DNA of 64,000 nucleotides from an uncultured bacterium (GCA_963746775.1 CAVVCK010000002.1:431656-495655), one strand, 5' to 3'. Shown: positions 4,165-55,498, numbered from the stretch's first letter. Notes: a model not told the origin generated them from the sequence alone. A program made the numbers and translations.

Positions 4165-5304
4165 TTACTTTTTATCTTCAAGCACACTTAACACGCTCTT
4201 TGCACATTCTTCCCATCTAAACTCCTTCACTCTCCCTAATCCTTTATTAATCAACCTTTGTCGCAAATTTTTATCAACTATTCCATTATAAACACCCAAA
4301 GCCAAATCATCAATATTATAAGGATCAATCAACAAAGCTGCATCTTGACATACTTCCGGTAAAGAAGAAACAAAAGAAGTTACTACCGGCACTCCACAAG
4401 CCATCGCCTCTAGTGCCGGAAAACCAAAGCCTTCATAAAAACTAGGATAAACAAATAATTTGGTTAAATTATATAAATAAGGCTTATCTTCTTCTTCTAT
4501 AAATCCTGGAAAAATTATATCTTTTTTATATTTTGATTTTTCCCAATTTTCAAATATCTTTTTATAGCACCAAGCTTTCTCCCCCGCAATAACTAATTTA
4601 TTATTAATTTTATTCTGGTCTCTTAATTTTTCATAAGCAGATATAAGCCCTACAATATTTTTGCGCGGCTCTATTGATCCTAGTGATAAAATAAAATCTT
4701 TTGGTAAATTATATTTTTTTCTAATTTCTTCCAATTTATTGTCGTTATTACAAACCTTTAAATTCTCATTTATTCCAGAATATATTATCCTGATTTTTTC
4801 TTCCGAAATGCCATATGTTAAAACTAGGTCATCTTTAGTAGCTTCTGATACTGCAATAATGTAATCATTGTCTTTAGCTAATTTCTTGGGGTTTACCACT
4901 CTATGCCAGAGTCTTCTCTTTAATGAGTAGAAATGGGAATAATGAGAAAAGGCTAAATCATGGAAAGTAATAATGTTTTGGCAATTTTTATCTAATGAAT
5001 AAAAAGAAATATTTGGTGCAAAGAATATATCACAATCTAAGATTTTACTTATTTTGGGATAGTTAAATAAAACAAAAGACAAATTTAATAATTTATTAGG
5101 TATTTTTGTTTTTTTTATCTCTACATTAGGAAAATCAAAGGCCTTATCTATATCAAAGGAAGGACCCTTAAATGAATTAAAAAAAAGCTTATATTGATTT
5201 TCTTGATCAATTTTAAAAAGATTAGTTAGAAGATTCAGGGTATAACCCTCTACTCCTGTTCTTTTACCTTCAGATAACATGCGAATATCTATACCTATTT
5301 TCAT
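4165..5304 (-). CDS. Glycosyltransferase, GT4 family
   Basis: 379 aa. YPSFYEGFGFPALEAMACGVPVVTS motif. Confidence 0.85.
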   Translation of the reverse strand: MKIGIDIRMLSEGKRTGVEGYTLNLLTNLFKIDQENQYKLFFNSFKGPSFDIDKAFDFPNVEIKKTKIPNKLLNLSFVLFNYPKISKILDCDIFFAPNISFYSLDKNCQNIITFHDLAFSHYSHFYSLKRRLWHRVVNPKKLAKDNDYIIAVSEATKDDLVLTYGISEEKIRIIYSGINENLKVCNNDNKLEEIRKKYNLPKDFILSLGSIEPRKNIVGLISAYEKLRDQNKINNKLVIAGEKAWCYKKIFENWEKSKYKKDIIFPGFIEEEDKPYLYNLTKLFVYPSFYEGFGFPALEAMACGVPVVTSFVSSLPEVCQDAALLIDPYNIDDLALGVYNGIVDKNLRQRLINKGLGRVKEFRWEECAKSVLSVLEDKK

Positions 5305-5449: not shown

Positions 5450-6022
5450 TTTGTTCATTTACAAAATTTCCTTTTCTCTTTATAGCCCTAAAATTTAAGG
5501 CTTTAATGAGGAAAGGAGGTAGCATGAGTAGCTACCCGAGTGGGTTTGTCTAACAATAGGCAAAAATGCGAACCAGACCAAGATTCGACGGGGCGTCGAG
5601 GTCTGGTTGAACTTATTTTCCCCGTTAAACCTCTAACTGACAGAAGAAAGGAGGTTAACCCTGATTAAATCAGATTATGGCATGACGGCTTGCCATTTTC
5701 TGAAGAGCAAGAATAACCGTCAAACCCCCTGCATATTAAGGAGGTAAAATGCAGGTACACAAACGCTGGTTAGCAATGCTAACTAGCGCGATCTGAGAAA
5801 ACGCCACTCAGATCGTACAGAGGCGGTTCCCTGGGAGTTACCGCCGGGCGAAAAACTCCCAAACGGCCACGCTCAAGGCCACACCGAGACAGGCGATCTC
5901 GGCATTGAGCACAGGGGGCAAGCACCACATCGATCTTTTGCTTCGCCCCCACCCTTTTCAGAAAATATAATTAAATTGTATTTTGTGAAAATTAAAAAAT
6001 CACGCCTTAGGCGTGATTTTTT
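5450..6022 (+). ncRNA. Unclassified large structured RNA (about 570 nt). Strand is assigned from the promoter/terminator pair and is not certain.
   Basis: 210 of 420 nt are G+C in 5521-5940, against 18-30% in flanking lines. More than 10 directly readable helices, two pseudoknot-type pairings and three AAGGAGGU boxes. No credible ORF. See findings. Confidence 0.6.
5994..6022. terminator. Intrinsic terminator, A6-ATCACGCC-tta-GGCGTGAT-T6 (bidirectional geometry)
   Basis: GC-rich 8-bp stem flanked by an A-run and a T-run. Confidence 0.75.
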
Positions 6023-6073: not shown

Positions 6074-6688
6074 TTATTCTTCTTCCTTCAAATATTCTCT
6101 AAAAAATGCCAACCCCAAACCAATAAATATACCACCCAATAAACCAAACGCACCTACCAAATAAGGGTTATATTTTTTTAAAGTAATAATGGGTTCATCC
6201 GCTTCTACAGAAAACGAACTGTTACCTTCAGCATTTATTTCTAGAGTTTCAACTTTTTTCTTAGTCTCCTCTACTAAGGCTTTAGATAATTTACCCACCA
6301 CATCTCTATTGCTATTATTTAACCTCACGTCTATTAAATGAGAAGATAATTGCTTTGTCTTAACTTTTTTAGCTTCTTGATAAGCATCGCTCATTTTATC
6401 TTCTAAACCTGCTTCTTTGTAAACTAGGATTATAACTTCTGGAGTCTCAAGCCAACCGGTAATAGTATTGCTTAAATATTCAGCTGCCTGAATTGAATAA
6501 TAATTATCATACTGAAAATCTTCTGTTTTTTCTCTTTCAACTCTATGAATAGTCATTAAGATTGAGGCGTCAAAGCTGTCTTTTTGTAAAAACCCTAAAA
6601 TTAAAGATAAAGCTCCACATAAAACCCCTATAATTATAATAAATTTAATTTTTTCTTTTAGCACTTTAAAATAATCCTTTAAGTTCAT
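6074..6688 (-). CDS. Wzz/polysaccharide co-polymerase-like chain-length determinant (short form)
   Basis: 204 aa. N-terminal TM (FIIIIGVLCGALSLILGFL) and C-terminal TM (LVGAFGLLGGIFIGLGLAFF) flank a soluble domain, which is the PCP topology. Lies in the glycan cluster. Confidence 0.65.
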   Translation of the reverse strand: MNLKDYFKVLKEKIKFIIIIGVLCGALSLILGFLQKDSFDASILMTIHRVEREKTEDFQYDNYYSIQAAEYLSNTITGWLETPEVIILVYKEAGLEDKMSDAYQEAKKVKTKQLSSHLIDVRLNNSNRDVVGKLSKALVEETKKKVETLEINAEGNSSFSVEADEPIITLKKYNPYLVGAFGLLGGIFIGLGLAFFREYLKEEE

Positions 6689-24764: not shown

Positions 24765-25019
24765 CTACATTCCTTCAATCTCTTTTATTTTAACATAAGG
24801 ACCGCTAATTTGGCTAATTTCTACTTTAGAACCGCTCAAAACTGTCCCTTTACTTAATAATTTAATATTAAATTTCAAATTAGAAGGTAGAATAGTTTCT
24901 CCATGCTCAGAAATTTTTCCCAAGCCAATTTTAATATTAGTAATTTTTTTTAAGCCATTTTTTCTGGCATACTCTTTTATATCCCGAACTATTTTGTCTG
25001 CTGCATGTAGGTCGTGCAT
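24765..25019 (-). CDS. HypA-like nickel metallochaperone lacking the zinc-ribbon domain (84 aa)
   Basis: Starts MHD (compare the MHE Ni site). The alignable HypA core runs up to EISQISG...VKIKEIE. No CxxC pairs anywhere. Confidence 0.6.
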   Translation of the reverse strand: MHDLHAADKIVRDIKEYARKNGLKKITNIKIGLGKISEHGETILPSNLKFNIKLLSKGTVLSGSKVEISQISGPYVKIKEIEGM

Positions 25020-25060
25020 AAAATCAATATAACATTAAAACAATATAATTAAATAACAAT

Positions 25061-25429
25061 TTATTTTTTATTATCTATACTTTTTCCTAAAGTTTTCAGT
25101 TCTGTCCAAAGCATAACACCTATTTCATCGGCTAATTTTAAAGCAATAATGTAATCTTCTTTTTTTATATAATTCTCATTTAAAGAGAAATAGAGAAGGT
25201 ACTTAGACTCTTTTAATGATCCATAAGATATTTCAAGAAAATTCAACTGGACAGCTCTTTTCCTTCTAGCAAAACCTTCAATATAATTAAGTATCACCGA
25301 GAGTAATGATCTTCTTATCTATGAAACAACTCCATATAATTCTGCCTTTGGATATCCCCTGGTTAATTTATACATTGAATGAACATATTCATCCATTTTT
25401 AATTTTAACTCATCTTGAAACTTAGGCAT
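25061..25429 (-). pseudogene. Four-helix-bundle protein gene (23S rRNA IVS / Avd-like family) interrupted by one in-frame TAG at 25319..25321
   Basis: Own translation: MPKFQDELKLKMDEYVHSMYKLTRGYPKAELYGVVS*IRRSLLSVILNYIEGFARRKRAVQLNFLEISYGSLKESKYLL... The track shows only the 78-aa distal part (GTG start). Confidence 0.75.
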
Positions 25430-25432
25430 TTG

Positions 25433-25464
25433 TTATTTTGTTCTTGTGTTATCTTGTTATTTTG
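25433..25464. repeat. 32-nt intergenic motif TTATTTTGTTCTTGTGTTATCTTGTTATTTTG (31/32 identical to 36195-36226)
   Basis: Direct comparison of the two sites. Confidence 0.8.
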
Positions 25465-25466
25465 GC

Positions 25467-26735
25467 TTAATGTACCGAACACGTAATACAAGGATCATAA
25501 GCTCTGATCATCATTTTTATTTTCCTTGTTCTTTCTTCTTCTGTCAAATTTAGAACTCTTGATAAATATTGTTCTAAATCTCTTTCCATATTAGATATTA
25601 GTTGCGCTGTTGGTGTAATAATATTTAGTTTAGTAATCTTTCCCTTGCTACTTATTCCATAGGCATGATAAAGCGTTCCCCGAGGCGCTTCTATCGCTCC
25701 TACTCCGTAGCCTTCTTTCACTTTATAATCTGTAGCTATATTTTTCAAATCTGATTTTAAAACTTTTTCTAATAATTTTATACTTTCTTCAATACTATCA
25801 ATAATTTCAATCATTTGCGCTAAAATATTGTAAAAAGAATTACAAGAAGGCAATATAATACCCGATTTTTTTAATAATTTTTGCGCTTCTCTGTTTAATT
25901 TTTCATGATTAATATTAAGCCGGGCCAGTGCCCCTACCATAATTTCTTTATCGTTTTTCTTAACCCTCTTAACTGCTTCATAGGGCAATTGAATTTCTTC
26001 TATATTATTTTCAAATTTATCTGGTGAAATATTTAATCCTTTCGTTGATACTACGCTACCATCATATATTGAATATTCCTTTTTATTGCTCAAAGCTACA
26101 TATTCCGTCTCCCGACTAAAGCCTGGATATTTTAATTTGCTAAAAAATTCTCCTAGAATTGCAGCTTCTTTTAATATCTGACCACTTTGTTTTAGTAATT
26201 TCTCTACTTTAGATCGATTTGGTGCTACTCTAAAACCTCCTATTTTGCCAGACACAGGATGTATTGATCTTCCACCAAAAACATGAATCAGCTCATTACC
26301 ATATTCTCTAATGGACAAAGCTAGCTTAGTATATTCTGGAAATTGTTTAATTAAAGTAGAAGCTTCTGAAATATCAAAGAAATCTGATAGAGATAAAAAA
26401 TAAATATGCAGTGTATGGCTTTGAATAAATTGGCCCAGCATTAAAATTTTACGCATTATAACTGCATCTTCGGGAATTTTAACGTCTAAAGCTGATTCAA
26501 CGGCTTTTAGCGCAGTTAAGTAGTGAACAACCGGACATACTCCGCAAATACGAGCTGAAATATTAGCTGCTTCTTCAAAATTCCTGCCTACCATTATTCT
26601 CTCAAAAAGCCTAATGCCCATTATTACTTCAAAGCGAGCTTTTTGAACATTACCATTAACAATATCACCAATAAATCCAGCATGGCCTTCAATTTTGTCT
26701 ATTTGATTAATTTTAATTGTTCTTTTATTACTCAT
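25467..26735 (-). CDS. [NiFe]-hydrogenase large subunit, group 3b-like (alpha)
   Basis: 422 aa. N-terminal RICGVCPVVH and C-terminal DPCITCSVH-stop. Confidence 0.9.
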   Translation of the reverse strand: MSNKRTIKINQIDKIEGHAGFIGDIVNGNVQKARFEVIMGIRLFERIMVGRNFEEAANISARICGVCPVVHYLTALKAVESALDVKIPEDAVIMRKILMLGQFIQSHTLHIYFLSLSDFFDISEASTLIKQFPEYTKLALSIREYGNELIHVFGGRSIHPVSGKIGGFRVAPNRSKVEKLLKQSGQILKEAAILGEFFSKLKYPGFSRETEYVALSNKKEYSIYDGSVVSTKGLNISPDKFENNIEEIQLPYEAVKRVKKNDKEIMVGALARLNINHEKLNREAQKLLKKSGIILPSCNSFYNILAQMIEIIDSIEESIKLLEKVLKSDLKNIATDYKVKEGYGVGAIEAPRGTLYHAYGISSKGKITKLNIITPTAQLISNMERDLEQYLSRVLNLTEEERTRKIKMMIRAYDPCITCSVH

Positions 26736-27478
26736 TGTTTTTTTAATTTTTCAATTTTTACTCCATAAACTTCCATCATTTCATAAATCTCTTTCTCACT
26801 CACCCTATCTTTCAATGCTTTAATTATATTTTCCCAGTTAGCCTCTTTCAAAAATCCTCTACAACCATAGCACTCTAACCCACCAGATAAACAAGCAGCA
26901 CCACATCCTCCAGCTGTAGCCGGTCCCAAGCATGGCTTTCCTTCTTGTAATAAGCATTTATAACCATTTATTTGGCACTCATAACAAACTGGCCTTTGGA
27001 TATTCTTAGGATTACGGCCAGCTAGCAGCATATATACTATTCTCAAGAAATCTTTATTATCAATAGGACAGCCCAGCACTTCATAATCAACTTTAACGAC
27101 TTCTTTAACTGATTCTACTTTATAATCTTCCACTTCCTTTGGTCTTTCGTAAACAAATTTAGGCTTCACTAATTTAGGATGATAATTTTTCATTTTCTGC
27201 ACTCCCCCATGAGTAGCGCAAGTACCCAGCGCTATTAAAATCTTACTTCGTCCGCGAATACTTTTTAAAAATTTAAATTGTTCATCTAATAATGGAGTAC
27301 CTTCTACAAAGACAATATCATAGTTGCCTTCCTCGGGTAGTTCTTCAATCAAATGAAATTCTGCCAAATCAATTCTTTTAGTTAATTCTAAAAATTTCTC
27401 ACCTAAATCTAGGATAGCAAATTCACATCCCTCACAGCATGTTAAGCTTACTATCCCTACTTTTGGTTTCTTAGTCAT
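26732..27478 (-). CDS. [NiFe]-hydrogenase small subunit, group 3b-like (delta)
   Basis: 248 aa. VSLTCCEGCEF, GTCATHGG, Cys-rich C-terminus. ATGA overlap with the large subunit. Confidence 0.85.
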   Translation of the reverse strand: MTKKPKVGIVSLTCCEGCEFAILDLGEKFLELTKRIDLAEFHLIEELPEEGNYDIVFVEGTPLLDEQFKFLKSIRGRSKILIALGTCATHGGVQKMKNYHPKLVKPKFVYERPKEVEDYKVESVKEVVKVDYEVLGCPIDNKDFLRIVYMLLAGRNPKNIQRPVCYECQINGYKCLLQEGKPCLGPATAGGCGAACLSGGLECYGCRGFLKEANWENIIKALKDRVSEKEIYEMMEVYGVKIEKLKKQ

Positions 27479-27510
27479 AAAAAGATAAAAATTTTAAAAC
27501 ATTAAAACAA

Positions 27511-27870
27511 TTATTTTGAATCTTTGATATTTTTTATTTCAGTCCAAAGCAGAGCACCTATTTCATCTGCTAATTCCATTCCCTTTTTATATTGATTTTC
27601 GTTAATAAATCCTTCCATTAAAGAAAAATGTAAAAGATATTTAGTTTCTTTCAATAATCCATACGACATCATTGAAAAATTTCTCTGATTACCCTTATTA
27701 AATCTTGCAAAACCTTCTATATAATTAAGTATTACTGACAATGAAACTCGTTTAAGTTAAGAAACTATACCGAATAATTCTTCTTTTGGAAAATTGTATG
27801 ATATCTTATAGCAATAATGAGCATATTGATCCATTTTCTTTTTCAATATTTCTCTATAATTCTCTTTCAT
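27511..27870 (-). pseudogene. Second four-helix-bundle protein gene interrupted by one in-frame TAA at 27757..27759
   Basis: Own translation: MKENYREILKKKMDQYAHYCYKISYNFPKEELFGIVS*LKRVSLSVILNYIEGFARFNKGNQRNF... The track shows only the 76-aa distal part (TTG start). Confidence 0.75.
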
Positions 27871-27905
27871 TAATTTTGTTCTCGTGCTCTAGTGTTTTAA
27901 TGTTT

Positions 27906-28652
27906 TTATAATCCTATATTCGCCAACCCTACACTATACCCATTCCACTTATTCAAATTCATCACTTGCAAATCACTCAACTTATCACAAGCCCAAAACC
28001 AGTGCATGGAGACAAAGTCTCCTATTTTTATATTTTCAATAAACTTCTTATTATTAAATTTAAAATATATATCTTTATTTTCTAAATTTCCAAAGATAAA
28101 CTGATTATCTTTAAATATTAAAGGCCTATATTTTATTTCTAATTTTCCAGATTTTATTTTTAAAACACGTGTAGGCAATATTAAACATTCATTAATAGTC
28201 TCCAAAGTATGCTCTACTGGATAATAACCTGTTCGCTTGGGAATATTCAGCACATGAAAGCTATGATGAGGCTTCGCTCCCATCGGAATCTTACCAATTA
28301 CCTTCTCTGCCATTTTCATTTTAAACTTTTTCTTCAAGTTCTGCTTATCAATCAAATAACTATAGAAATTATTCATAGAAACATTATTCAGAAGATCATT
28401 CCCTATCCAATAAGCTTCACTAACTTTAGAATTAAGTGGATCTGAAATATGACTAGCATCAGCAATTAATTTTAAATAAGGATACATAGTCTGAAATTCA
28501 GCTAAAATCTCTTCTAACCCTTTATCTTGCTGATTCTGAGATACATATTCAAAAAGATTGCTATTCTTATCACCTCCGCAATACTGCAGCTTATTAGGAC
28601 TAAAGGCATAACGAGCTGCAATCAACATTCCATTATACGATAGGTTTTCCAT
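27906..28652 (-). CDS. Hypothetical 248-aa protein with a C-terminal HypC/HupF-like domain
   Basis: Residues about 155-240, ECLILPTRVLKIKSGKLEIKY...IKIGDFVSMHWFWACDKLS, parallel the local HypC MCLTYPAKILKIKGEIALIQ...LKVGDYILHNANLAIKKV. Confidence 0.6.
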   Translation of the reverse strand: MENLSYNGMLIAARYAFSPNKLQYCGGDKNSNLFEYVSQNQQDKGLEEILAEFQTMYPYLKLIADASHISDPLNSKVSEAYWIGNDLLNNVSMNNFYSYLIDKQNLKKKFKMKMAEKVIGKIPMGAKPHHSFHVLNIPKRTGYYPVEHTLETINECLILPTRVLKIKSGKLEIKYRPLIFKDNQFIFGNLENKDIYFKFNNKKFIENIKIGDFVSMHWFWACDKLSDLQVMNLNKWNGYSVGLANIGL

Positions 28653-29937: not shown

Positions 29938-32232
29938 TTATTCTTCTTTTAGTTTATATAAGTAATATTCTCCTTCATGGGCTACTAGATCCATGTGTTT
30001 GTTTTTAAATTTTATCACCCTTTTGTAATTATCTAAAGTAAAATTAGCATATTCTTGTGAGCCATTTTCTTGTTTAGCCCACAATATTCTTTCCGAAATA
30101 TTTTCCGTATACCCTCTCCAAATAAAATATCTTATGTTAAAATTTTTTAATACTCGGATAACATGTTCCTCAGTATTATTTTTTAATAAATAACTAATAT
30201 ATAATAAATAATGATCTTGTATATAACGGTTATTAGAGTTATCTATATAATAACCCCTTGCTTGATCTAATCCCCAAATCATTTCTTTATTATCTAAATT
30301 ATTATTTAAATATTCTGACATTAAATACAATTTATCTCTCGATATACTCGGATCTGGTGAATATAGAGACATATAATTTATTCTTTTGTTAAATTGTAAA
30401 TTTCCAATTGTAATTATCCAGATCGATAAGAATGTATATAAAAATAATTTTAGGTATTTATTTCTTGTAAAAAATATTTGACTCAATAAAACAAAAAATA
30501 AAACATACAATGAAATAGCATACCAGATAACAACATGTCCTATATAAACCCAACCGAAATATAGAATAATAGTAGCAAACAATAGTAAAATAAATTCCCT
30601 TTTCAATTTCCTATAAAATATATTCTTTATATAATAAAATATTATAACTGGAGCAAAAAGAATAAATGTAAAACCTATGTTTAACGCATCAGAAATATAT
30701 TTTTTATTTCCTATATAAGTAATATCAAAAGGTATATTTAAAAAATAACTCAAATCCTTTTTTTGTTTATCATCCCATATCAAGTAAGCTTCATTTCTCA
30801 TCTCATTAACTATATATTTTTGTGAATCTCGACCTAAAGTATCATAAAAAGATTGTTTTGAAGCTAACTTCTCACTTAAAATTGGGTCAATCGGGTTACC
30901 GCTAAATTTAATATTTCTGACAAACCATGGCAACATAAAAATAAATATTATTAATCCCCAAATAAAAAAATATTTTACTTTTATTTTATTTCTAATTATT
31001 TGTACTAGAAAAAATATTACCAACGGAACAATATACCATGTTAGAAAAAAATATTTTAACCCGGCCGCGATACCACAGAAAACACTAAAAATAATTAAGT
31101 CTTTTATTTTTCTTTTTTTTAGATAGTTTATAAAAGAACAATAACTGATCAATGTATAAAAAACAAAAATCATTTCTATTTTATGGTCTTCTAAATTTTG
31201 AAAAAATATTACAGGCAATGTTAAATAGGCAATAATAGCATAAACGCCACCCTTTAATTTATTTTTTCTAAAGAAATAATAAATGCATAAAACAATTAAT
31301 AAAGTAAAAATAAAAATAAGCGCTAAAGTTATTTGGAAGTTAAAAAGTAAATATCCTAAAGTAAATAACATTTCTCCATTTTGAGGAAAACCATAATAAA
31401 TCCAATAAGGAAAATTTACTATCCCATGATTCTCAACGAAAATCTTAGGATAAGTTAAATAGGAAATGAAAGCATCAAAACCAGAAGGAAATTGCTGAAA
31501 TATACCCGAAATATCAATTCCTAAAATCACAGGAATAATTAAAAAAATACCTTTTCCAAATAAAGTTAATTTTTTGAGTTCATAAAAATTATTTTTATCT
31601 TTAAAATAAGTCCACAATTCTATAATTTCTTTATAAGTAACAAAGGTTACAATAATCATTAAAACATAAGCAATAATTCTATAATATAAACCAAACATTC
31701 CTAAAAAATACACAATAAACATTAAAGCACCAAATCCTAGAGCACAAGAAAATAAAAACTTTTCTAAAAAAAAGCTAGTTTTATATTTAAATATTTTTAA
31801 TGTTTTACAACCTAAAGAAAAAGATATTAAAAATATCCAGGAAACTAAAATAATAGTAATTATATCATTACCAATAACGCCTAAATTATAAGAAGATCTA
31901 GCATAAATCCAGATAATCCATAAAAATGTAAAAAAATATAAAGACAAAGGCAAATAATATACAGGTATTTTTAAATCATTTATCTTATTTTTAAGTCCTT
32001 TTCTGCTTATTGACATAAAGTCTTTAATTTTTTTGCTTGGCCAAAAAATAATTAAAACTATTTTAAACAAAGCTAAAATATTAGCTATAAGTAAAGCAAA
32101 AGTAACAAACAAAGCTACTGATGATATAAATGCTTCTCCATAGTTAGGAAAACTATAAAAATAATAAACTATTACAACAATTCCCCACATCAGGAATAAT
32201 CCTGCAAAAATTTTTGAATAATATTTTTTCAT
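29938..32232 (-). CDS. Large polytopic membrane protein (764 aa), possibly a GT-C-type glycosyltransferase
   Basis: More than 14 hydrophobic segments followed by a soluble C-terminal domain. The function call is by architecture only. Confidence 0.4.
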   Translation of the reverse strand: MKKYYSKIFAGLFLMWGIVVIVYYFYSFPNYGEAFISSVALFVTFALLIANILALFKIVLIIFWPSKKIKDFMSISRKGLKNKINDLKIPVYYLPLSLYFFTFLWIIWIYARSSYNLGVIGNDIITIILVSWIFLISFSLGCKTLKIFKYKTSFFLEKFLFSCALGFGALMFIVYFLGMFGLYYRIIAYVLMIIVTFVTYKEIIELWTYFKDKNNFYELKKLTLFGKGIFLIIPVILGIDISGIFQQFPSGFDAFISYLTYPKIFVENHGIVNFPYWIYYGFPQNGEMLFTLGYLLFNFQITLALIFIFTLLIVLCIYYFFRKNKLKGGVYAIIAYLTLPVIFFQNLEDHKIEMIFVFYTLISYCSFINYLKKRKIKDLIIFSVFCGIAAGLKYFFLTWYIVPLVIFFLVQIIRNKIKVKYFFIWGLIIFIFMLPWFVRNIKFSGNPIDPILSEKLASKQSFYDTLGRDSQKYIVNEMRNEAYLIWDDKQKKDLSYFLNIPFDITYIGNKKYISDALNIGFTFILFAPVIIFYYIKNIFYRKLKREFILLLFATIILYFGWVYIGHVVIWYAISLYVLFFVLLSQIFFTRNKYLKLFLYTFLSIWIITIGNLQFNKRINYMSLYSPDPSISRDKLYLMSEYLNNNLDNKEMIWGLDQARGYYIDNSNNRYIQDHYLLYISYLLKNNTEEHVIRVLKNFNIRYFIWRGYTENISERILWAKQENGSQEYANFTLDNYKRVIKFKNKHMDLVAHEGEYYLYKLKEE

Positions 32233-51468: not shown

Positions 51469-52659
51469 TTATTTAATAATTTTAGTAACCACACCAGCTC
51501 CAACCGTCTTGCTACCTTCTCGGATAGCAAACTTTTGTTTTTCTTCCATAGCAATTGGTGCTCCAAGCTTTACATTTAAATTAGCTGTATCACCAGGCAT
51601 AACCATTTCTGTACCTGCGGGTAATTCTACTTCTCCTGTTACATCAGTAGTTCTGAAATAAAATTGTGGCTTATATCCTTTAGCGAAAGCTGTATGTCTT
51701 CCACCTTCTTCTTTAGTTAGAGCATAAATTTCTGCTGAAAATTCAGTATGAGGAGTAATTGTCCCCGGTTTAGCTAAAACTTGACCTCGCTCTACATCTT
51801 CTTTCTTTGTTCCACGAAGCAGAATACCTGCGTTATCACCTGCTTGGCCTTCATCTAATTGTTTATTAAACATTTCAATTCCTGTCACAACTGTCTTTGG
51901 AGTATCTTTAAGACCAACTATTTCAACTTCATCATTTAAATTAACTTTTCCTCGCTCAATTCTACCAGTCACAACTGTACCACGTCCTTCAATTGAGAAA
52001 ATGTCTTCGATTGGCATTAAGAAAGGTTGATCAACATCTCTTTTTGGTTCTGGAATATATGAATCTAACTTTTCGAATAATTCTAAAATTGGTTTAGCAT
52101 CATCACCTGTTGGATTTTCTAAAGCTTTTAGAGCCGAACCACGAATGATGGGTATTTCATCGCCAGGATATTCATATTTTTTCAATAAATCTCTTACTTC
52201 CTCTTCAACTAAATCAACTAATTCAGGATCATCAACCTGATCAACTTTATTCAAAAATACAATAATAGAAGGGACACCAATTTGATGAGCTAATAAAATA
52301 TGTTCTCTCGTTTGAGGCATGGGACCATCAGTAGCAGAGACTACTAGAATTGCACCGTCCATTTGAGCAGCACCTGTAATCATATTTTTAATATAATCAG
52401 CATGGCCTGGACAATCAACGTGGGCGTAATGTCTTTTTTCAGTCTCATATTCACAGTGAGCAGTAGCAATAGTAATTCCTCTTTCTCTCTCTTCAGGTGC
52501 GGCGTCAATTTGATCAACTCCTTTTTCCTGAGCTTTTCCTTTACCAGAAGCATTTAAAACTTTAAGCATAGCGGCTGTTAGCGTAGTTTTACCATGGTCA
52601 ACATGACCAATTGTACCAACATTAATGTGAGGTTTTCCTCTTTCAAATTTATCTGCCAT
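51469..52659 (-). CDS. tuf: Elongation factor Tu
   Basis: [22 protein letters not shown]. Confidence 0.98.
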
Positions 52660-52861: not shown

Positions 52862-53191
52862 TTAGAAATCATCATCTAGATCTTCATATAGATATTGGGT
52901 TTCATTTTTTAAATCTTCATCAGTAGAATCGCCTGTTAAAAAATGATCATCTAGATTTTTTTCCTCTTCATTTTGACTAGCGTGCCAAATAGCTATATCT
53001 TTATTGATTTTCTCTACTAATTCTTCTTTAGACATTTCTCCTATAAAAACATTTTCTGAATTAGAGACTATTTTCTTATATTCCTTAATATCCATTAATA
53101 CATATGAGGGTTTACCTTCTTCTACAATAATATACTTACCACTAGAATTTTTTAATAGATCAATAATTTCGGAAAAATCTTTTGAATTCAT
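52862..53191 (-). CDS. Hypothetical acidic 109-aa protein between fusA and tuf. The N-terminal third resembles Phd/YefM-type antitoxin folds.
   Basis: SGKYIIVEEGKPSYVLMDIKEYKKI, then an acidic tail ending YEDLDDDF. Confidence 0.55.
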   Translation of the reverse strand: MNSKDFSEIIDLLKNSSGKYIIVEEGKPSYVLMDIKEYKKIVSNSENVFIGEMSKEELVEKINKDIAIWHASQNEEEKNLDDHFLTGDSTDEDLKNETQYLYEDLDDDF

Positions 53192-53272: not shown

Positions 53273-53396
53273 ATAGAAACTTATTGAAATTCACAGAAAT
53301 TAATTGTTGTTTACCATGTACTCAGAAAAACAACAACGAATTTCCTATACTTCGACAAACTCAGCACAAGATTTCTATTAATTTCTAAGTTTCTAT
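53273..53396. repeat. Nested long hairpin downstream of fusA
   Basis: Outer ATAGAAACTTATTGAAATT / AATTTCTAAGTTTCTAT. Inner GAAATTAATTGTTGTTT / AAACAACAACGAATTTC. The right arm overlaps the fusA stop codon. Confidence 0.6.
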
Positions 53397-55498
53397 TTCT
53401 TTTCATCTTCTCCAATAATTTCTTTAGCGACATTGCCTGGAACTTGCTCATATTTCTCGAATTCCATTGTATAATTAGCTCGTCCTTGAGTTAGAGATCG
53501 TAGTGAAGTTGAATATCCGAACATGGAAGCTAAGGGTACAAAAGCTTTGATAACTTTCATATTTGTTCTATCAGTCATTTCTTGAATCTGCGCTCTTTTT
53601 GAATTTAGATCACCTACTACATCACCCATTGATTTTTCTGGAGTAAGTACTTCGACTCTCATTACTGGTTCGAGTAAAACTGGATTAGCTTTTTTAACAC
53701 CACTACGGAAAGCCATAGATCCAGCTATTTTAAAGGCAGCTTCTGAAGAGTCAACATCATGATAAGAACCATCATATAAAGTTACTTTTACATCTATAAC
53801 CGGATAACCAGCTAATACTCCATTATCAGATGCTTCTTTGGCTCCTTTACCAACTGGCTGTATATATTCTTGAGGAATAACTCCTCCTTTTATTTCATTA
53901 ACAAATTCAAAACCCTTACCTCTTTCCTGAGGTTCAAGTCTTAACCAAACATGACCGTATTGTCCACGTCCTCCTGATTGCTTAATATATTTTCCTTCAA
54001 CTTCTGTAGCAATTGTTATTGCTTCTTTATAAGCTACTTGCGGTTTGCCTACTGTTGCTTCTACTTTAAATTCTCTCTTCATGCGATCAACTAAAACATC
54101 TAAATGAAGCTCTCCCATACCAGCTATGATTGTCTGCCCAGTATCCTCATCAGTTTTAACTCGAAAAGTAGGATCTTCTTCAGCTAATTCTCTAAGTGCA
54201 TGAGCCATTTTTTCTTGATCTGCTTTAGTCTTTGGTTCAATAGCAACTGATATAACCGGCTCAGGAAAAGTAATTTTTTCTAATATTATAGGATTATCTT
54301 CATCACATAAAGTATCACCAGTCGTTGTACCTTTTAAACCTACAATAGCAGCAATATCACCAGTATATACTTCTTTAATTTCTTCTCTTTTATTGGCATG
54401 CATACGCACAATTCTACTAACCCTTTCTTTCTTGCCAGTTGAAGCATTAAGGATATATGATCCAGCTTTTAATACTCCCGAATAAACTCTGAAAAATATT
54501 AATTTACCAACAAAAGGATCTGTGGCTACTTTAAAAGCAAGCCCGGCAAATGGTTCGTTATCATCTGTTTTTCTAATTATCTCTTTTTCTTCGTCGTGAA
54601 CATCGCAGCCATGAGCTGGTGGAACATCTAATGGCGAAGGAAGTAAATCAACTACAACATCGAGTAATTTTTTTATAACAGCTTTTCTACCATCACCGCC
54701 AAGTACTGGATAATATTCTCCAGAAATAACACCCTTGCGCATTGCTCTTTTATATTCATCTACGGATATTTCTTGGCCATCTAGAAATTTTTCCATAACC
54801 TTATCATCAGCTTCTACAATTATTTCTAACATTTCATTTCTATATTTCTCACAAATTTCTTTCATATCTTCTGGAATTTCTTTTGCTTCAGATAATTCTA
54901 AACCATCTGTACCTTCAGTATAATAAGCCTTCATTTCTAGTAAATCAACTAAGCCTTTGATATCTTCTCCTTGACCAATCGGTAACATTATAGGAAAAGC
55001 TTTATTGCTTAATCTTTCTTTAATAGAATCTAGAGATCTATAAAAATCTCCACCAACTAAATTCAATTTATTTAAAAAACATATTCTGGGAACTTTATAT
55101 TTATCAGCTTGATGCCAAACTGTTTCCGATTGTGGTTCAACACCCATTTTACCATCAAATATTACTACTGCACCATCTAAAACTCGCAGTGATCTTTCCA
55201 CTTCCACAGTAAAATCAACATGACCTGGTGTATCAATAATATTTATACGATGTTCGTTTTTTTCTTTTAAATTAGTCGGAGACCAAAAACAAGTCGTAGC
55301 TGCCGAAGTGATAGTAATACCTCGCTCTCTTTCTTGTTCCATCCAATCCATAGTAGCTTCACCTTCATGAACTTCACCAATTTTATAAGAAATTCCAGTG
55401 AAATATAAAATACGCTCTGTGACTGTGGTTTTTCCAGCATCAATATGAGCGATTATTCCTATATTTCTTATTTTTTCGAGTGGATATTGTCTTGGCAT
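53393..55498 (-). CDS. fusA: Elongation factor G
   Basis: [17 protein letters not shown]. 701 aa. Confidence 0.98.

What the first reader, a model, noticed from the sequence alone, without database searches (positions are those of the whole stretch)
25061..25429. Four-helix-bundle (23S-IVS/Avd-like) gene with an in-frame TAG at the conserved Gln column; same lesion position as its paralogue 2.4 kb away
Reading the minus strand from ATG 25429 gives a normal-length (122-codon) member of the four-helix-bundle family: MPKFQDELKLKMDEYVHSMYKLTRGYPKAELYGVVS*IRRSLLSVILNYIEGFARR...

The single stop (TAG, 25319-25321) falls where family members I know have Gln (..tSQlRRAa.Si..NIaEG..). That is one C-to-T change from CAG.

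The paralogue at 27511-27870 carries TAA at exactly the same alignment column (GIVS*LKRVSLSVILNYIEGFARF). Yet the two copies are well diverged at the nucleotide level, so the interruption has persisted through substantial divergence. Both downstream parts can restart at GTG/TTG 8 and 6 codons after the stop respectively.

Global reassignment of TAA/TAG is excluded, because those codons end most other genes in this window (a few, such as ackA, end in TGA). The remaining options are:
- an ancient inherited inactivation
- regulated read-through or suppression
- a deliberately split two-peptide form (36-37 aa plus 76-78 aa)
Basis: partly seen in the sequence, partly recalled or inferred. Interest (0 to 1): 0.8.

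Follow-up and report, generated by a model that had tools for sequence, protein, structure and literature searches.

The report
Two nonsense-hit four-helix-bundle gene cassettes
Two small, dispensable four-helix-bundle genes flanking the hydrogenase genes of a tiny (CPR/Patescibacteria) bacterium each carry a stop codon at the same invariant glutamine, most likely from two separate recent knock-out mutations rather than an ancient or programmed feature.

Summary
On the minus strand, 25429-25061 (TAG at 25321-25319) and 27870-27511 (TAA at 27759-27757) are PF05635/TIGR02436 four-helix-bundle genes. Each has one in-frame stop at the same HMM and alignment column, which is Gln in 222 of 224 homologues.

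The claim that the stop persisted through divergence fails:
- The two copies belong to different sub-lineages (53.5% aa identity to each other; 86% and 68% to genes in other genomes).
- The syntenic orthologue of copy 1 (L001) has CAA, and the nearest relatives of copy 2 have Gln.
- Syntenic relatives at about 80% nt identity lack both genes.
- A scan of GTDB species genomes found 0 TAR against at least 120 CAR at this column. JGI metagenomes gave 4 TAR contigs.

Each ORF is abutted by imperfect inverted repeats and sits in an intergenic slot that holds a DUF559 gene or nothing in relatives, so these are variable cassettes. Gln37 lies mid-helix 2, which makes a designed split implausible. TAA/TAG end 57 of 62 long ORFs, and no other gene in the window is interrupted.

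Best reading: two independent, fairly recent CAR-to-TAR nonsense mutations in dispensable cassettes. The same-column coincidence (null P about 0.01-0.02) is not fully explained. A suppressor tRNA elsewhere in the 547-kb genome could not be checked.

The parts
25061..25429 (-). Four-helix-bundle gene, copy 1 (122 codons plus final TAA), interrupted once
   Evidence: Translation. PF05635 scores 83.6 bits and TIGR02436 82.2 bits. The syntenic orthologue P0001/L001 is 86% aa identical and intact.
25319..25321 (-). In-frame TAG at codon 37, the invariant Gln of the SQ[IL]RR motif, mid-helix 2
   Evidence: The orthologue has CAA here. Helix 2 spans residues 28-54 in the AF2 model of the orthologue.
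25295..25297 (-). GTG, possible restart 8 codons after the TAG (78-aa ORF)
   Evidence: ORF list. No SD-like motif upstream, but only 1 of 62 genes in the window has one. A product from here would lack conserved residues 37-44.
27511..27870 (-). Four-helix-bundle gene, copy 2 (119 codons plus final TAA), interrupted once
   Evidence: Translation. PF05635 scores 73.1 bits and TIGR02436 68.1 bits. The nearest intact homologues are P0138 (68%) and P0139 (66%).
27757..27759 (-). In-frame TAA at codon 38, the same alignment and HMM column as the TAG of copy 1
27739..27741 (-). TTG, possible restart 6 codons after the TAA (76-aa ORF)
25430..25475 (.). Inverted-repeat arm abutting the start of copy 1
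   Evidence: the repeat finder I1: pairs with 25014-25059, 46 nt, 72% complementary. The flanks pair in the MFE fold.
25014..25059 (.). Inverted-repeat arm abutting the stop of copy 1; it runs into the hypA start
   Evidence: This flank is 40/41 identical to L001.
27876..27909 (.). Inverted-repeat arm upstream of copy 2
   Evidence: the repeat finder I1: pairs with 27477-27510, 34 nt, 71% complementary. The flanks pair in the MFE fold.
27477..27510 (.). Inverted-repeat arm abutting the stop of copy 2
25467..27478 (-). NiFe-hydrogenase small (26732-27478) and large (25467-26735) subunit genes, bracketed by the two cassettes
   Evidence: Pfam PF01058 and PF00374.
24765..25019 (-). hypA, immediately downstream of copy 1. 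The slot upstream of hypA is variable among relatives.
   Evidence: Pfam PF01155. In relatives the slot holds an intact 4HB gene (L001), a DUF559 gene (L127, L128, L129, L144-L146), or neither of those genes (L126, L136, L138-L142).

Best explanation
The two genes are separate copies of a small, dispensable cassette that turns over quickly. Each cassette is a PF05635 four-helix-bundle ORF bracketed by imperfect inverted repeats. They sit in intergenic slots on either side of the NiFe-hydrogenase subunit genes.

Each copy has suffered its own C-to-T nonsense substitution (CAR to TAR) at the invariant Gln37 in the middle of helix 2. These events are recent relative to the family's divergence and were not inherited from a common ancestor.

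The stops most likely abolish or strongly reduce the full-length protein, so these are early-stage pseudogenes of a selfish-type cassette. This matches the degeneration phase seen for ORFs in CPR rRNA insertions.

Shown:
- the stops, the column and the family membership;
- the non-orthology of the two copies;
- the intact orthologue;
- cassette presence/absence among relatives;
- the rarity of the stop elsewhere.

Inferred:
- loss of function;
- any residual full-length product would come from near-cognate tRNA-Gln misreading of UAG/UAA, which would restore the wild-type residue. That could explain why a Gln-codon nonsense allele is better tolerated than others.
For: - Copy 1 and copy 2 are 53.5% aa identical. 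Copy 1 is 86% identical to P0001, and copy 2 is 68% identical to P0138.
- L001 keeps the 4HB-hypA-pgk synteny and has CAA where the window has TAG.
- P0138, P0139 and 222 of 224 homologues have Q at the column.
- The syntenic relatives L126 and L127 (77-82% nt identity) lack both genes. The hypA slot holds DUF559 or neither gene in other relatives.
- The TAR pattern occurs 0 times in GTDB species genomes against at least 120 CAR. It occurs in 4 JGI contigs, representing 3 genes, all otherwise intact.
- About 4% of CAR-selected copies (5 of about 125) carry internal stops elsewhere, two of them at W108. Nonsense-hit copies are therefore a normal minority in this family.
- Copy 2 shows mild extra divergence. 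It has 4 deviations at 49 columns that are at least 90% conserved, an HMM score below the 1st percentile, and 3-5% lower identity to the family than its sister sequences.
- Gln37 lies mid-helix 2.
- No other gene in the window is interrupted, and TAA/TAG are the normal terminators.
- There is no shared nucleotide tract around the stops, so recent gene conversion between the two copies is unlikely.
- There is no motif-wide C-to-T pattern that would suggest a systematic base-calling artefact.
Against: - The same-column hit has a probability of only 0.012-0.021 under mutation-only nulls.
- Both copies in the window are hit, whereas the background rate of this lesion is of the order of 1% or less. 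Some genome-specific factor is therefore needed, such as relaxed selection on all copies, a selection filter on which nonsense alleles survive, or suppression.
- Both ORFs are otherwise perfectly open in a 30% GC genome.
- Copy 1 shows no sign of relaxed constraint. Omega against L001 is 0.14 (0.20 upstream and 0.115 downstream of the stop), the relative rate equals that of its intact orthologue, and its HMM score is normal. A still-functional gene cannot be excluded for copy 1.
- TAG versus CAA needs two substitutions in one codon.
Confidence: 0.6

Rival explanations
1. Functional decoding in this genome. UAG/UAA at these Gln codons would be read as Gln often enough to make protein, either by a suppressor tRNA encoded elsewhere in the genome or by context-independent near-cognate read-through. 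The stops would then act as expression throttles rather than knock-outs.
For: - Both stops sit exactly on a Gln column.
- Both ORFs are otherwise intact.
- Copy 1 evolves with omega 0.14 and at a normal rate.
- Hitting both copies at the same column is unlikely by chance.
Against: - There is no tRNA gene in the window.
- None of the roughly 60 other genes has an in-frame TAR.
- TAA/TAG terminate 57 of 62 long ORFs.
- The stop is not conserved in the orthologue and is absent from GTDB species genomes.
- The contexts after the stop differ (TAG-A, TAA-C, and TAA-T in the JGI cases).
- Established knowledge: UAA is the most efficient bacterial terminator.
- The papers searched describe no UAR-to-Gln decoding in Patescibacteria.
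Confidence: 0.12
2. A site-specific cause. The C of this codon would be a mutational hot spot, or the target of a process that silences the cassette (for example a deaminase acting on a conserved sequence or structure). Independent copies would then be hit at the same base.
For: - Recurrence at the same column: two copies here plus three further distinct genes in JGI metagenomes, all otherwise intact.
- The substitutions are C-to-T.
- Nonsense hits elsewhere in the family also cluster at a transition site, W108 (2 of 5).
Against: - The nucleotide context is not shared (TCA|CAG|ATA versus TCT|CAA|CTT).
- GTTTCNCA is still present elsewhere in the window.
- GTDB genomes show 0 TAR at this column against at least 120 CAR, so it is not a general hot spot.
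- No such silencing process is known in bacteria.
Confidence: 0.1
3. A deliberately split two-peptide protein: a 36-37 aa N-terminal piece plus a 76-78 aa C-terminal piece re-initiated at GTG/TTG.
For: - In-frame GTG/TTG lie 8 and 6 codons after the stops.
- All four fragments are called as genes in the public record.
Against: - The break lies mid-helix 2, not in a loop.
- The restart would delete conserved residues including R39, R40 and S44.
- GTG/TTG starts are rare in this genome (4 of the 66 minus-strand ORFs of at least 70 aa).
- The split is absent in the orthologue and in species genomes.
- The start-like codons are simply the family's conserved L43/V45 codons.
Confidence: 0.04
4. An ancient inactivation inherited by both paralogues.
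For: The column is the same in two diverged copies.
Against: - Each copy is far closer to intact genes in other genomes than to the other copy.
- The orthologue has CAA.
- This would require hundreds of reversions to Gln.
- 120-codon frames would not stay open under neutrality in a 30% GC genome.
Confidence: 0.02
5. A sequencing or assembly artefact at both sites.
For: The source is a single metagenome-derived 547-kb contig. No second assembly of these genes is on record.
Against: - Two random errors at homologous codons are vanishingly unlikely.
- There is no motif-wide C-to-T conversion.
- Copy 1 differs from the orthologue at two bases of the codon.
- The same lesion occurs in independent JGI assemblies, and one gene shows it in two samples (L123 and L125).
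Confidence: 0.04

Closest known systems
23S rRNA intervening-sequence protein / four-helix-bundle family (PF05635, TIGR02436; solved example PDB 2GSC, XCC0516)
   Same: - Sequence membership is well above the curated cut-offs.
- The SQxRR...NxxEG motif is conserved and aligns to 2GSC at E 1e-11.
- The predicted fold is a four-helix bundle.
- The ORF is bracketed by inverted repeats, as in rRNA intervening sequences.
   Different: - These copies lie between protein-coding genes of a hydrogenase locus, not in rRNA.
- Both copies are interrupted by a stop at the invariant Gln.
- The family's function is still uncharacterised (PMC11270868).
Avd accessory protein of diversity-generating retroelements (NF033474, PF22296 bAvd-like)
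   Same: Same superfamily fold and weak HMM similarity: 34 and 26.6 bits to NF033474, and 28-34 bits to PF22296.
   Different: - The scores are below both curated cut-offs (80 and 40 bits).
- No reverse transcriptase, template repeat or variable repeat lies nearby.
- The only RVT_3/RNase H-like hit is an RNase H domain protein about 14 kb away.
Degenerating ORFs of selfish insertions (the homing-endonuclease cycle; ORF-containing and ORF-less insertions at the same rRNA sites in CPR, PMC11270868)
   Same: - The small ORF cassette is present or absent among related genomes at the same slot.
- Alternative occupants include DUF559.
- Some copies carry inactivating mutations.
   Different: - No mobility mechanism has been shown for this cassette.
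- The slots are intergenic sites in operons rather than rRNA.
- No target-site duplication was seen.
Stop-codon reassignment or suppression to Gln (ciliate-type TAA/TAG=Gln; phage TAG=Gln recoding with suppressor tRNAs, bioRxiv 10.1101/2021.08.26.457843)
   Same: TAG and TAA fall on a Gln position.
   Different: - TAA/TAG are this genome's main terminators.
- Only two codons in 64 kb are affected.
- The stop is not conserved in the orthologue.
- No suppressor tRNA was seen in the window.

Membership tests
PF05635 / TIGR02436 four-helix-bundle (23S rRNA IVS protein) | Profile score above the curated cut-off | tested here: met
   With the stop read as Q: PF05635 83.6 and 73.1 bits (cut-off 33.8); TIGR02436 82.2 and 68.1 bits (cut-off 24).
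PF05635 / TIGR02436 four-helix-bundle (23S rRNA IVS protein) | Four-helix-bundle fold | tested here: met
   AF2 model of the 86%-identical orthologue P0001: pLDDT 94.4, helices 3-23, 28-54, 58-84 and 90-118. PDB 2GSC matches at E 1e-11. The window sequences themselves were not modelled.
PF05635 / TIGR02436 four-helix-bundle (23S rRNA IVS protein) | Uninterrupted reading frame encoding the whole domain | tested here: not met
   One in-frame TAG (25321-25319) and one in-frame TAA (27759-27757).
DGR accessory protein Avd | Equivalog score and an adjacent reverse transcriptase with template and variable repeats | tested here: not met
   NF033474 scores 34 and 26.6 bits against a cut-off of 80. The neighbours are hydrogenase, HypA, DUF6390 and EamA genes.
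Programmed stop-codon read-through / recoding site | The stop is conserved at the site among orthologues, with purifying selection on both sides | tested here: not met
   The orthologue has CAA. TAR occurs 0 times in GTDB genomes against at least 120 CAR. Omega on both sides is low, but it was measured against an intact orthologue.
Programmed stop-codon read-through / recoding site | A suppressor tRNA or a stimulatory context | not testable with these tools
   There is no tRNA in the window or in the related loci scanned. The contexts after the stop are not shared.
Reassigned genetic code (TAA/TAG = Gln) | TAA/TAG are not used as terminators, and in-frame TAR is widespread | tested here: not met
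   Terminator counts are TAA 45, TAG 12 and TGA 5. Only the two 4HB genes are interrupted.
Naturally split (two-gene) protein | The break lies at a structural boundary, no conserved residues are lost, and the split is conserved in relatives | tested here: not met
   The break is mid-helix 2. The restart loses residues 37-44 or 38-43. Relatives are unsplit.
rRNA intervening-sequence-type cassette | The ORF is enclosed by inverted repeats able to form a long stem | tested here: met
   Arms 25014-25059/25430-25475 and 27477-27510/27876-27909. Across 108 family loci, the flank duplex energy averages -29.3 against -17.9 kcal/mol for permuted pairs.
rRNA intervening-sequence-type cassette | Located inside an rRNA gene | tested here: not met
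   Both copies lie between protein-coding genes. Rfam finds no rRNA in the window.

The most novel reading that the evidence does not exclude
In this Patescibacteria genome, UAG and UAA at a conserved Gln codon would be decoded as Gln often enough to keep both cassette genes functional. The decoder would be either a suppressor tRNA-Gln encoded elsewhere in the 547-kb genome or tolerated near-cognate read-through. The same-column stops would then be selected expression throttles, or the footprint of an incipient UAR-to-Gln recoding in a bacterium.
Probability: 0.1. Interest if true: 0.65.

Novelty: new member of a known kind. Interest (0 to 1): 0.3.

Why it matters
If the ordinary reading holds, this is a clean snapshot of small selfish-type cassettes in a CPR genome at the first step of decay. 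It is useful mainly for annotation: the four fragments are currently called as separate genes.

It would matter more only if the stops are decoded. UAR-to-Gln suppression has not been described in Patescibacteria, and a nonsense codon used as an attenuator at its own cognate-like residue would be unusual in bacteria.

A by-product may be of wider interest for the biology of this uncharacterised family. PF05635 ORFs in CPR operons are bracketed by inverted repeats, as rRNA intervening sequences are, and they swap with DUF559 genes at the same slot.

Tried and rejected
- **Ancient shared stop:** rejected on the intact orthologue and on sub-lineage membership.
- **Gene conversion between the two copies:** rejected. 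They are 64.6% nt identical, and every codon flanking the stop differs.
- **Systematic motif-linked base-calling error:** rejected. GTTTCNCA still occurs, and the C/T motif ratios fit the base composition.
- **Global code change:** rejected.
- **DGR context:** rejected.
- **Viral collection scans:** the column pattern gave nothing for either TAR or CAR.
- **Extending beyond the window to look for suppressor tRNAs and further copies:** failed. Only a 4.9-kb Logan contig and no DNA of the 547-kb record were returned.
- **Shine-Dalgarno test of the restart codons:** uninformative, because only 1 of 62 genes has such a motif.
- **Whole-cassette RNA folds:** no more stable than shuffles (z about 0). 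Only the flank-to-flank pairing is notable.
- **Literature searches:** found no description of UAR-to-Gln decoding in Patescibacteria or of this cassette arrangement.

Full report
**1. Observation**

Both features are present exactly as described.
- Copy 1 runs on the minus strand from ATG 25429 to the final TAA at 25063-25061. It has 122 sense codons and a single in-frame TAG at 25321-25319.
- Copy 2 runs from ATG 27870 to the TAA at 27513-27511. It has 119 sense codons and a single in-frame TAA at 27759-27757.

With the stop read as Gln, both copies are clear members of PF05635 (83.6 and 73.1 bits; cut-off 33.8) and TIGR02436 (82.2 and 68.1 bits; cut-off 24). The HMM coordinates place both stops on the same profile column.

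In a MAFFT alignment the stops fall in the SQ[IL]RR motif, which is Gln in all 23 homologues aligned. In a larger set the column is Gln in 222 of 224 sequences and Arg in 2. The two copies are 53.5% identical in protein and 64.6% in DNA.

**2. Genetic code and other genes**

Long minus-strand ORFs end in TAA 45 times, TAG 12 times and TGA 5 times. The only same-frame ORF pairs that are not simply adjacent genes are the two four-helix-bundle genes. About 25 genes shared with the syntenic relatives have matching lengths. The window has no tRNA gene. Rfam finds only RNase P RNA.

**3. The stops are not inherited**

Homologues number in the thousands and are almost all from Patescibacteria/CPR.
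- Copy 1 is 86% identical to P0001. The contig carrying P0001 (L001) has the same order, 4HB-hypA-pgk, and is about 87-92% identical in DNA. There the codon is CAA.
- The closest relatives of copy 2, P0138 (68%) and P0139 (66%), are full length with Gln.

Each copy is therefore much closer to intact genes in other genomes than to its neighbour. A shared ancestral stop would need reversion in hundreds of lineages. There is also no common nucleotide tract around the stops, which argues against recent gene conversion between them.

**4. How common is a stop at this column?**

I built a 53-nt degenerate pattern covering the stop and the downstream LNYxEG[YF]A motif. It hits both window copies and nothing else in the window.
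- JGI metagenomes with TAR: four contigs representing three genes. All are TAA and all are otherwise open. One gene was seen in two samples.
- Viral contigs: nothing for either version.

Among about 125 CAR-selected copies, five have an internal stop elsewhere, two of them at Trp108. Nonsense-hit copies are thus a normal small minority of the family, and a stop at Gln37 is rare.

**5. What the genes are**

The two copies bracket the NiFe-hydrogenase genes. The order on the coding strand is HypC, EamA, DUF6390, [copy 2], small subunit, large subunit, [copy 1], HypA, PGK, enolase, iPGM.

Syntenic relatives at 77-82% DNA identity (L126, L127) have neither copy. The slot upstream of hypA varies among relatives:
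- a 122-aa DUF559 gene in L127, L128, L129, L144 and L145, and a 132-aa DUF559 gene in L146;
- neither a 4HB nor a DUF559 gene in L126 and in those of L136-L143 that reach upstream of hypA;
- the intact four-helix-bundle gene in L001.

Each window ORF is abutted by imperfect inverted repeats: 25014-25059 with 25430-25475 (46 nt, 72%), and 27477-27510 with 27876-27909 (34 nt, 71%). These flanks pair in the minimum-energy folds.

Inverted-repeat flanks are general in the family. Over 108 loci, the upstream/downstream duplex energy averages -29.3 kcal/mol, against -17.9 for permuted pairs.

These are therefore variable cassettes of the kind first seen inside rRNA intervening sequences. The domain is still functionally uncharacterised (PMC11270868).

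**6. Constraint**

Against L001, copy 1 has omega 0.14 overall (0.20 upstream and 0.115 downstream of the stop). For comparison, hypA has 0.076 and pgk 0.089. Its identity to the family equals that of its intact orthologue (0.680 versus 0.688). It deviates at only 2 of 49 highly conserved columns. If the frame became neutral at the stop, the lesion occupies at most roughly a tenth of its branch.

Copy 2 is mildly degraded. It has four deviations (R39K, E to M, S71L, M106L), an HMM score below the first percentile, and 3-5% lower identity to the family than its sister sequences.

Both results fit lesions that are recent, with copy 2's the older. For copy 1 they equally fit a gene that is still used.

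**7. Structure and the split idea**

The AlphaFold model of the orthologue has pLDDT 94.4 and helices at 3-23, 28-54, 58-84 and 90-118. PDB 2GSC matches at E 1e-11 with the Gln conserved.

Gln37 is in the middle of helix 2. Restarting at V45 or L43 would delete conserved R39, R40 and S44. The restart codons are simply the family's conserved Leu/Val codons. GTG/TTG starts are rare in this genome, and Shine-Dalgarno motifs are nearly absent (1 of 62 genes), so that test is uninformative. A designed two-peptide form is unlikely.

**8. The coincidence**

For two independent single nonsense hits, the chance of the same column is 0.012 (uniform model), 0.015 (transition bias) or 0.021 (GC-to-AT-biased spectrum). 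With a background rate of the order of 1% or less for this lesion, two of two copies in one window is not explained by chance alone.

Plausible genome-specific factors:
- Relaxed selection on all copies, combined with a filter on which nonsense alleles persist. A Gln-codon nonsense allele is the one that near-cognate tRNA-Gln misreading would repair to wild type. This rests on established knowledge of near-cognate decoding, not on any test here.
- A local hot spot.
- Real suppression.

I found no shared sequence context and no motif-wide C-to-T signature. A suppressor tRNA elsewhere in the 547,535-bp source contig could not be looked for. The four fragments are on record as called genes on that contig, but its DNA beyond the window was not retrievable.

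**9. Verdict**

The ancient inherited lesion is refuted and the split-protein idea is structurally implausible. Read-through or suppression is unsupported but not excluded.

The best-supported account is two independent, fairly recent CAR-to-TAR knock-outs, or strong knock-downs, of dispensable inverted-repeat-bracketed four-helix-bundle cassettes. The same-column coincidence remains unexplained.

Scores: interest 0.3. Most novel reading not excluded: functional UAR-to-Gln decoding in this CPR genome, probability about 0.1.

Noticed in passing
window 5490-5970: A GC-rich non-coding island of about 470 nt in a 30% GC genome, between the gene at 4165-5304 and the Wzz-like gene at 6074-6688. It has no ORF of 70 aa or more, no tRNA or tmRNA, and no Rfam match at gathering score or at E <= 0.01 (best 0.032). 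It folds far better than shuffles on both strands (z -6.5 and -7.5). It is a candidate large structured RNA of unknown family.
   Followed up: partly
window 25014-25475 and 27477-27909; loci L002-L121: PF05635 ORFs in CPR genomes are bracketed by inverted repeats of about 20-45 nt, often built from short purine-rich repeats upstream and their complement downstream. This resembles rRNA intervening sequences, but these copies sit between protein-coding genes. Flank duplex energy averages -29.3 against -17.9 kcal/mol for permuted pairs. No description was found in the papers searched.
   Followed up: partly
window 25020-25466; L001, L126, L127, L128, L129, L136-L146: The intergenic slot upstream of hypA is a variable site among relatives. 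It holds a four-helix-bundle gene, a 122-132 aa DUF559 (PF04480) gene, or neither of these. L127 also has a second DUF559 copy further along the locus.
   Followed up: partly
window 25061-25318 versus L001: Synonymous divergence inside copy 1 is uneven. dS is 0.24 upstream of the stop and 1.23 downstream, against 0.40 and 0.62 in hypA and pgk (Fisher P 0.007). The non-coding flanks are 94-98% identical. This suggests either a mosaic interior (gene conversion from other copies) or constrained flanks.
   Followed up: partly
L077 4292-4630; L091 6604-6945: Two unrelated species genomes carry a stop at the conserved Trp108 (EIGAML*) of their four-helix-bundle gene. This is a second recurrent nonsense position in the family.
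   Followed up: no
window 29938-32232: A 764-aa PMT_2-like glycosyltransferase gene with only about 23% GC lies between the NAD-binding oxidoreductase gene and hypC. It is absent from that position in L126 and L127.
   Followed up: no
L127 10745-11846 (also L128-L131): In these relatives, about 1.1 kb carrying four small opposite-strand ORFs (59, 62, 57 and 80 aa, no Pfam hit) is inserted between the hydrogenase small and large subunit genes. Those two genes are contiguous in the window and in L126.
   Followed up: no
whole window: Only 1 of 62 genes has a Shine-Dalgarno-like motif within 20 nt upstream of its start. Nearly all genes are on the minus strand, and GC skew is negative throughout.
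   Followed up: no
window 52862-53191: A 109-aa ORF with a weak Phd/YefM antitoxin match (24.9 bits, below the cut-off of 29.8) lies between the 701-aa ORF at 53393-55498 and the 396-aa ORF at 51469-52659. By size and position next to S10 these look like fusA and tuf, but they were not scanned.
   Followed up: no
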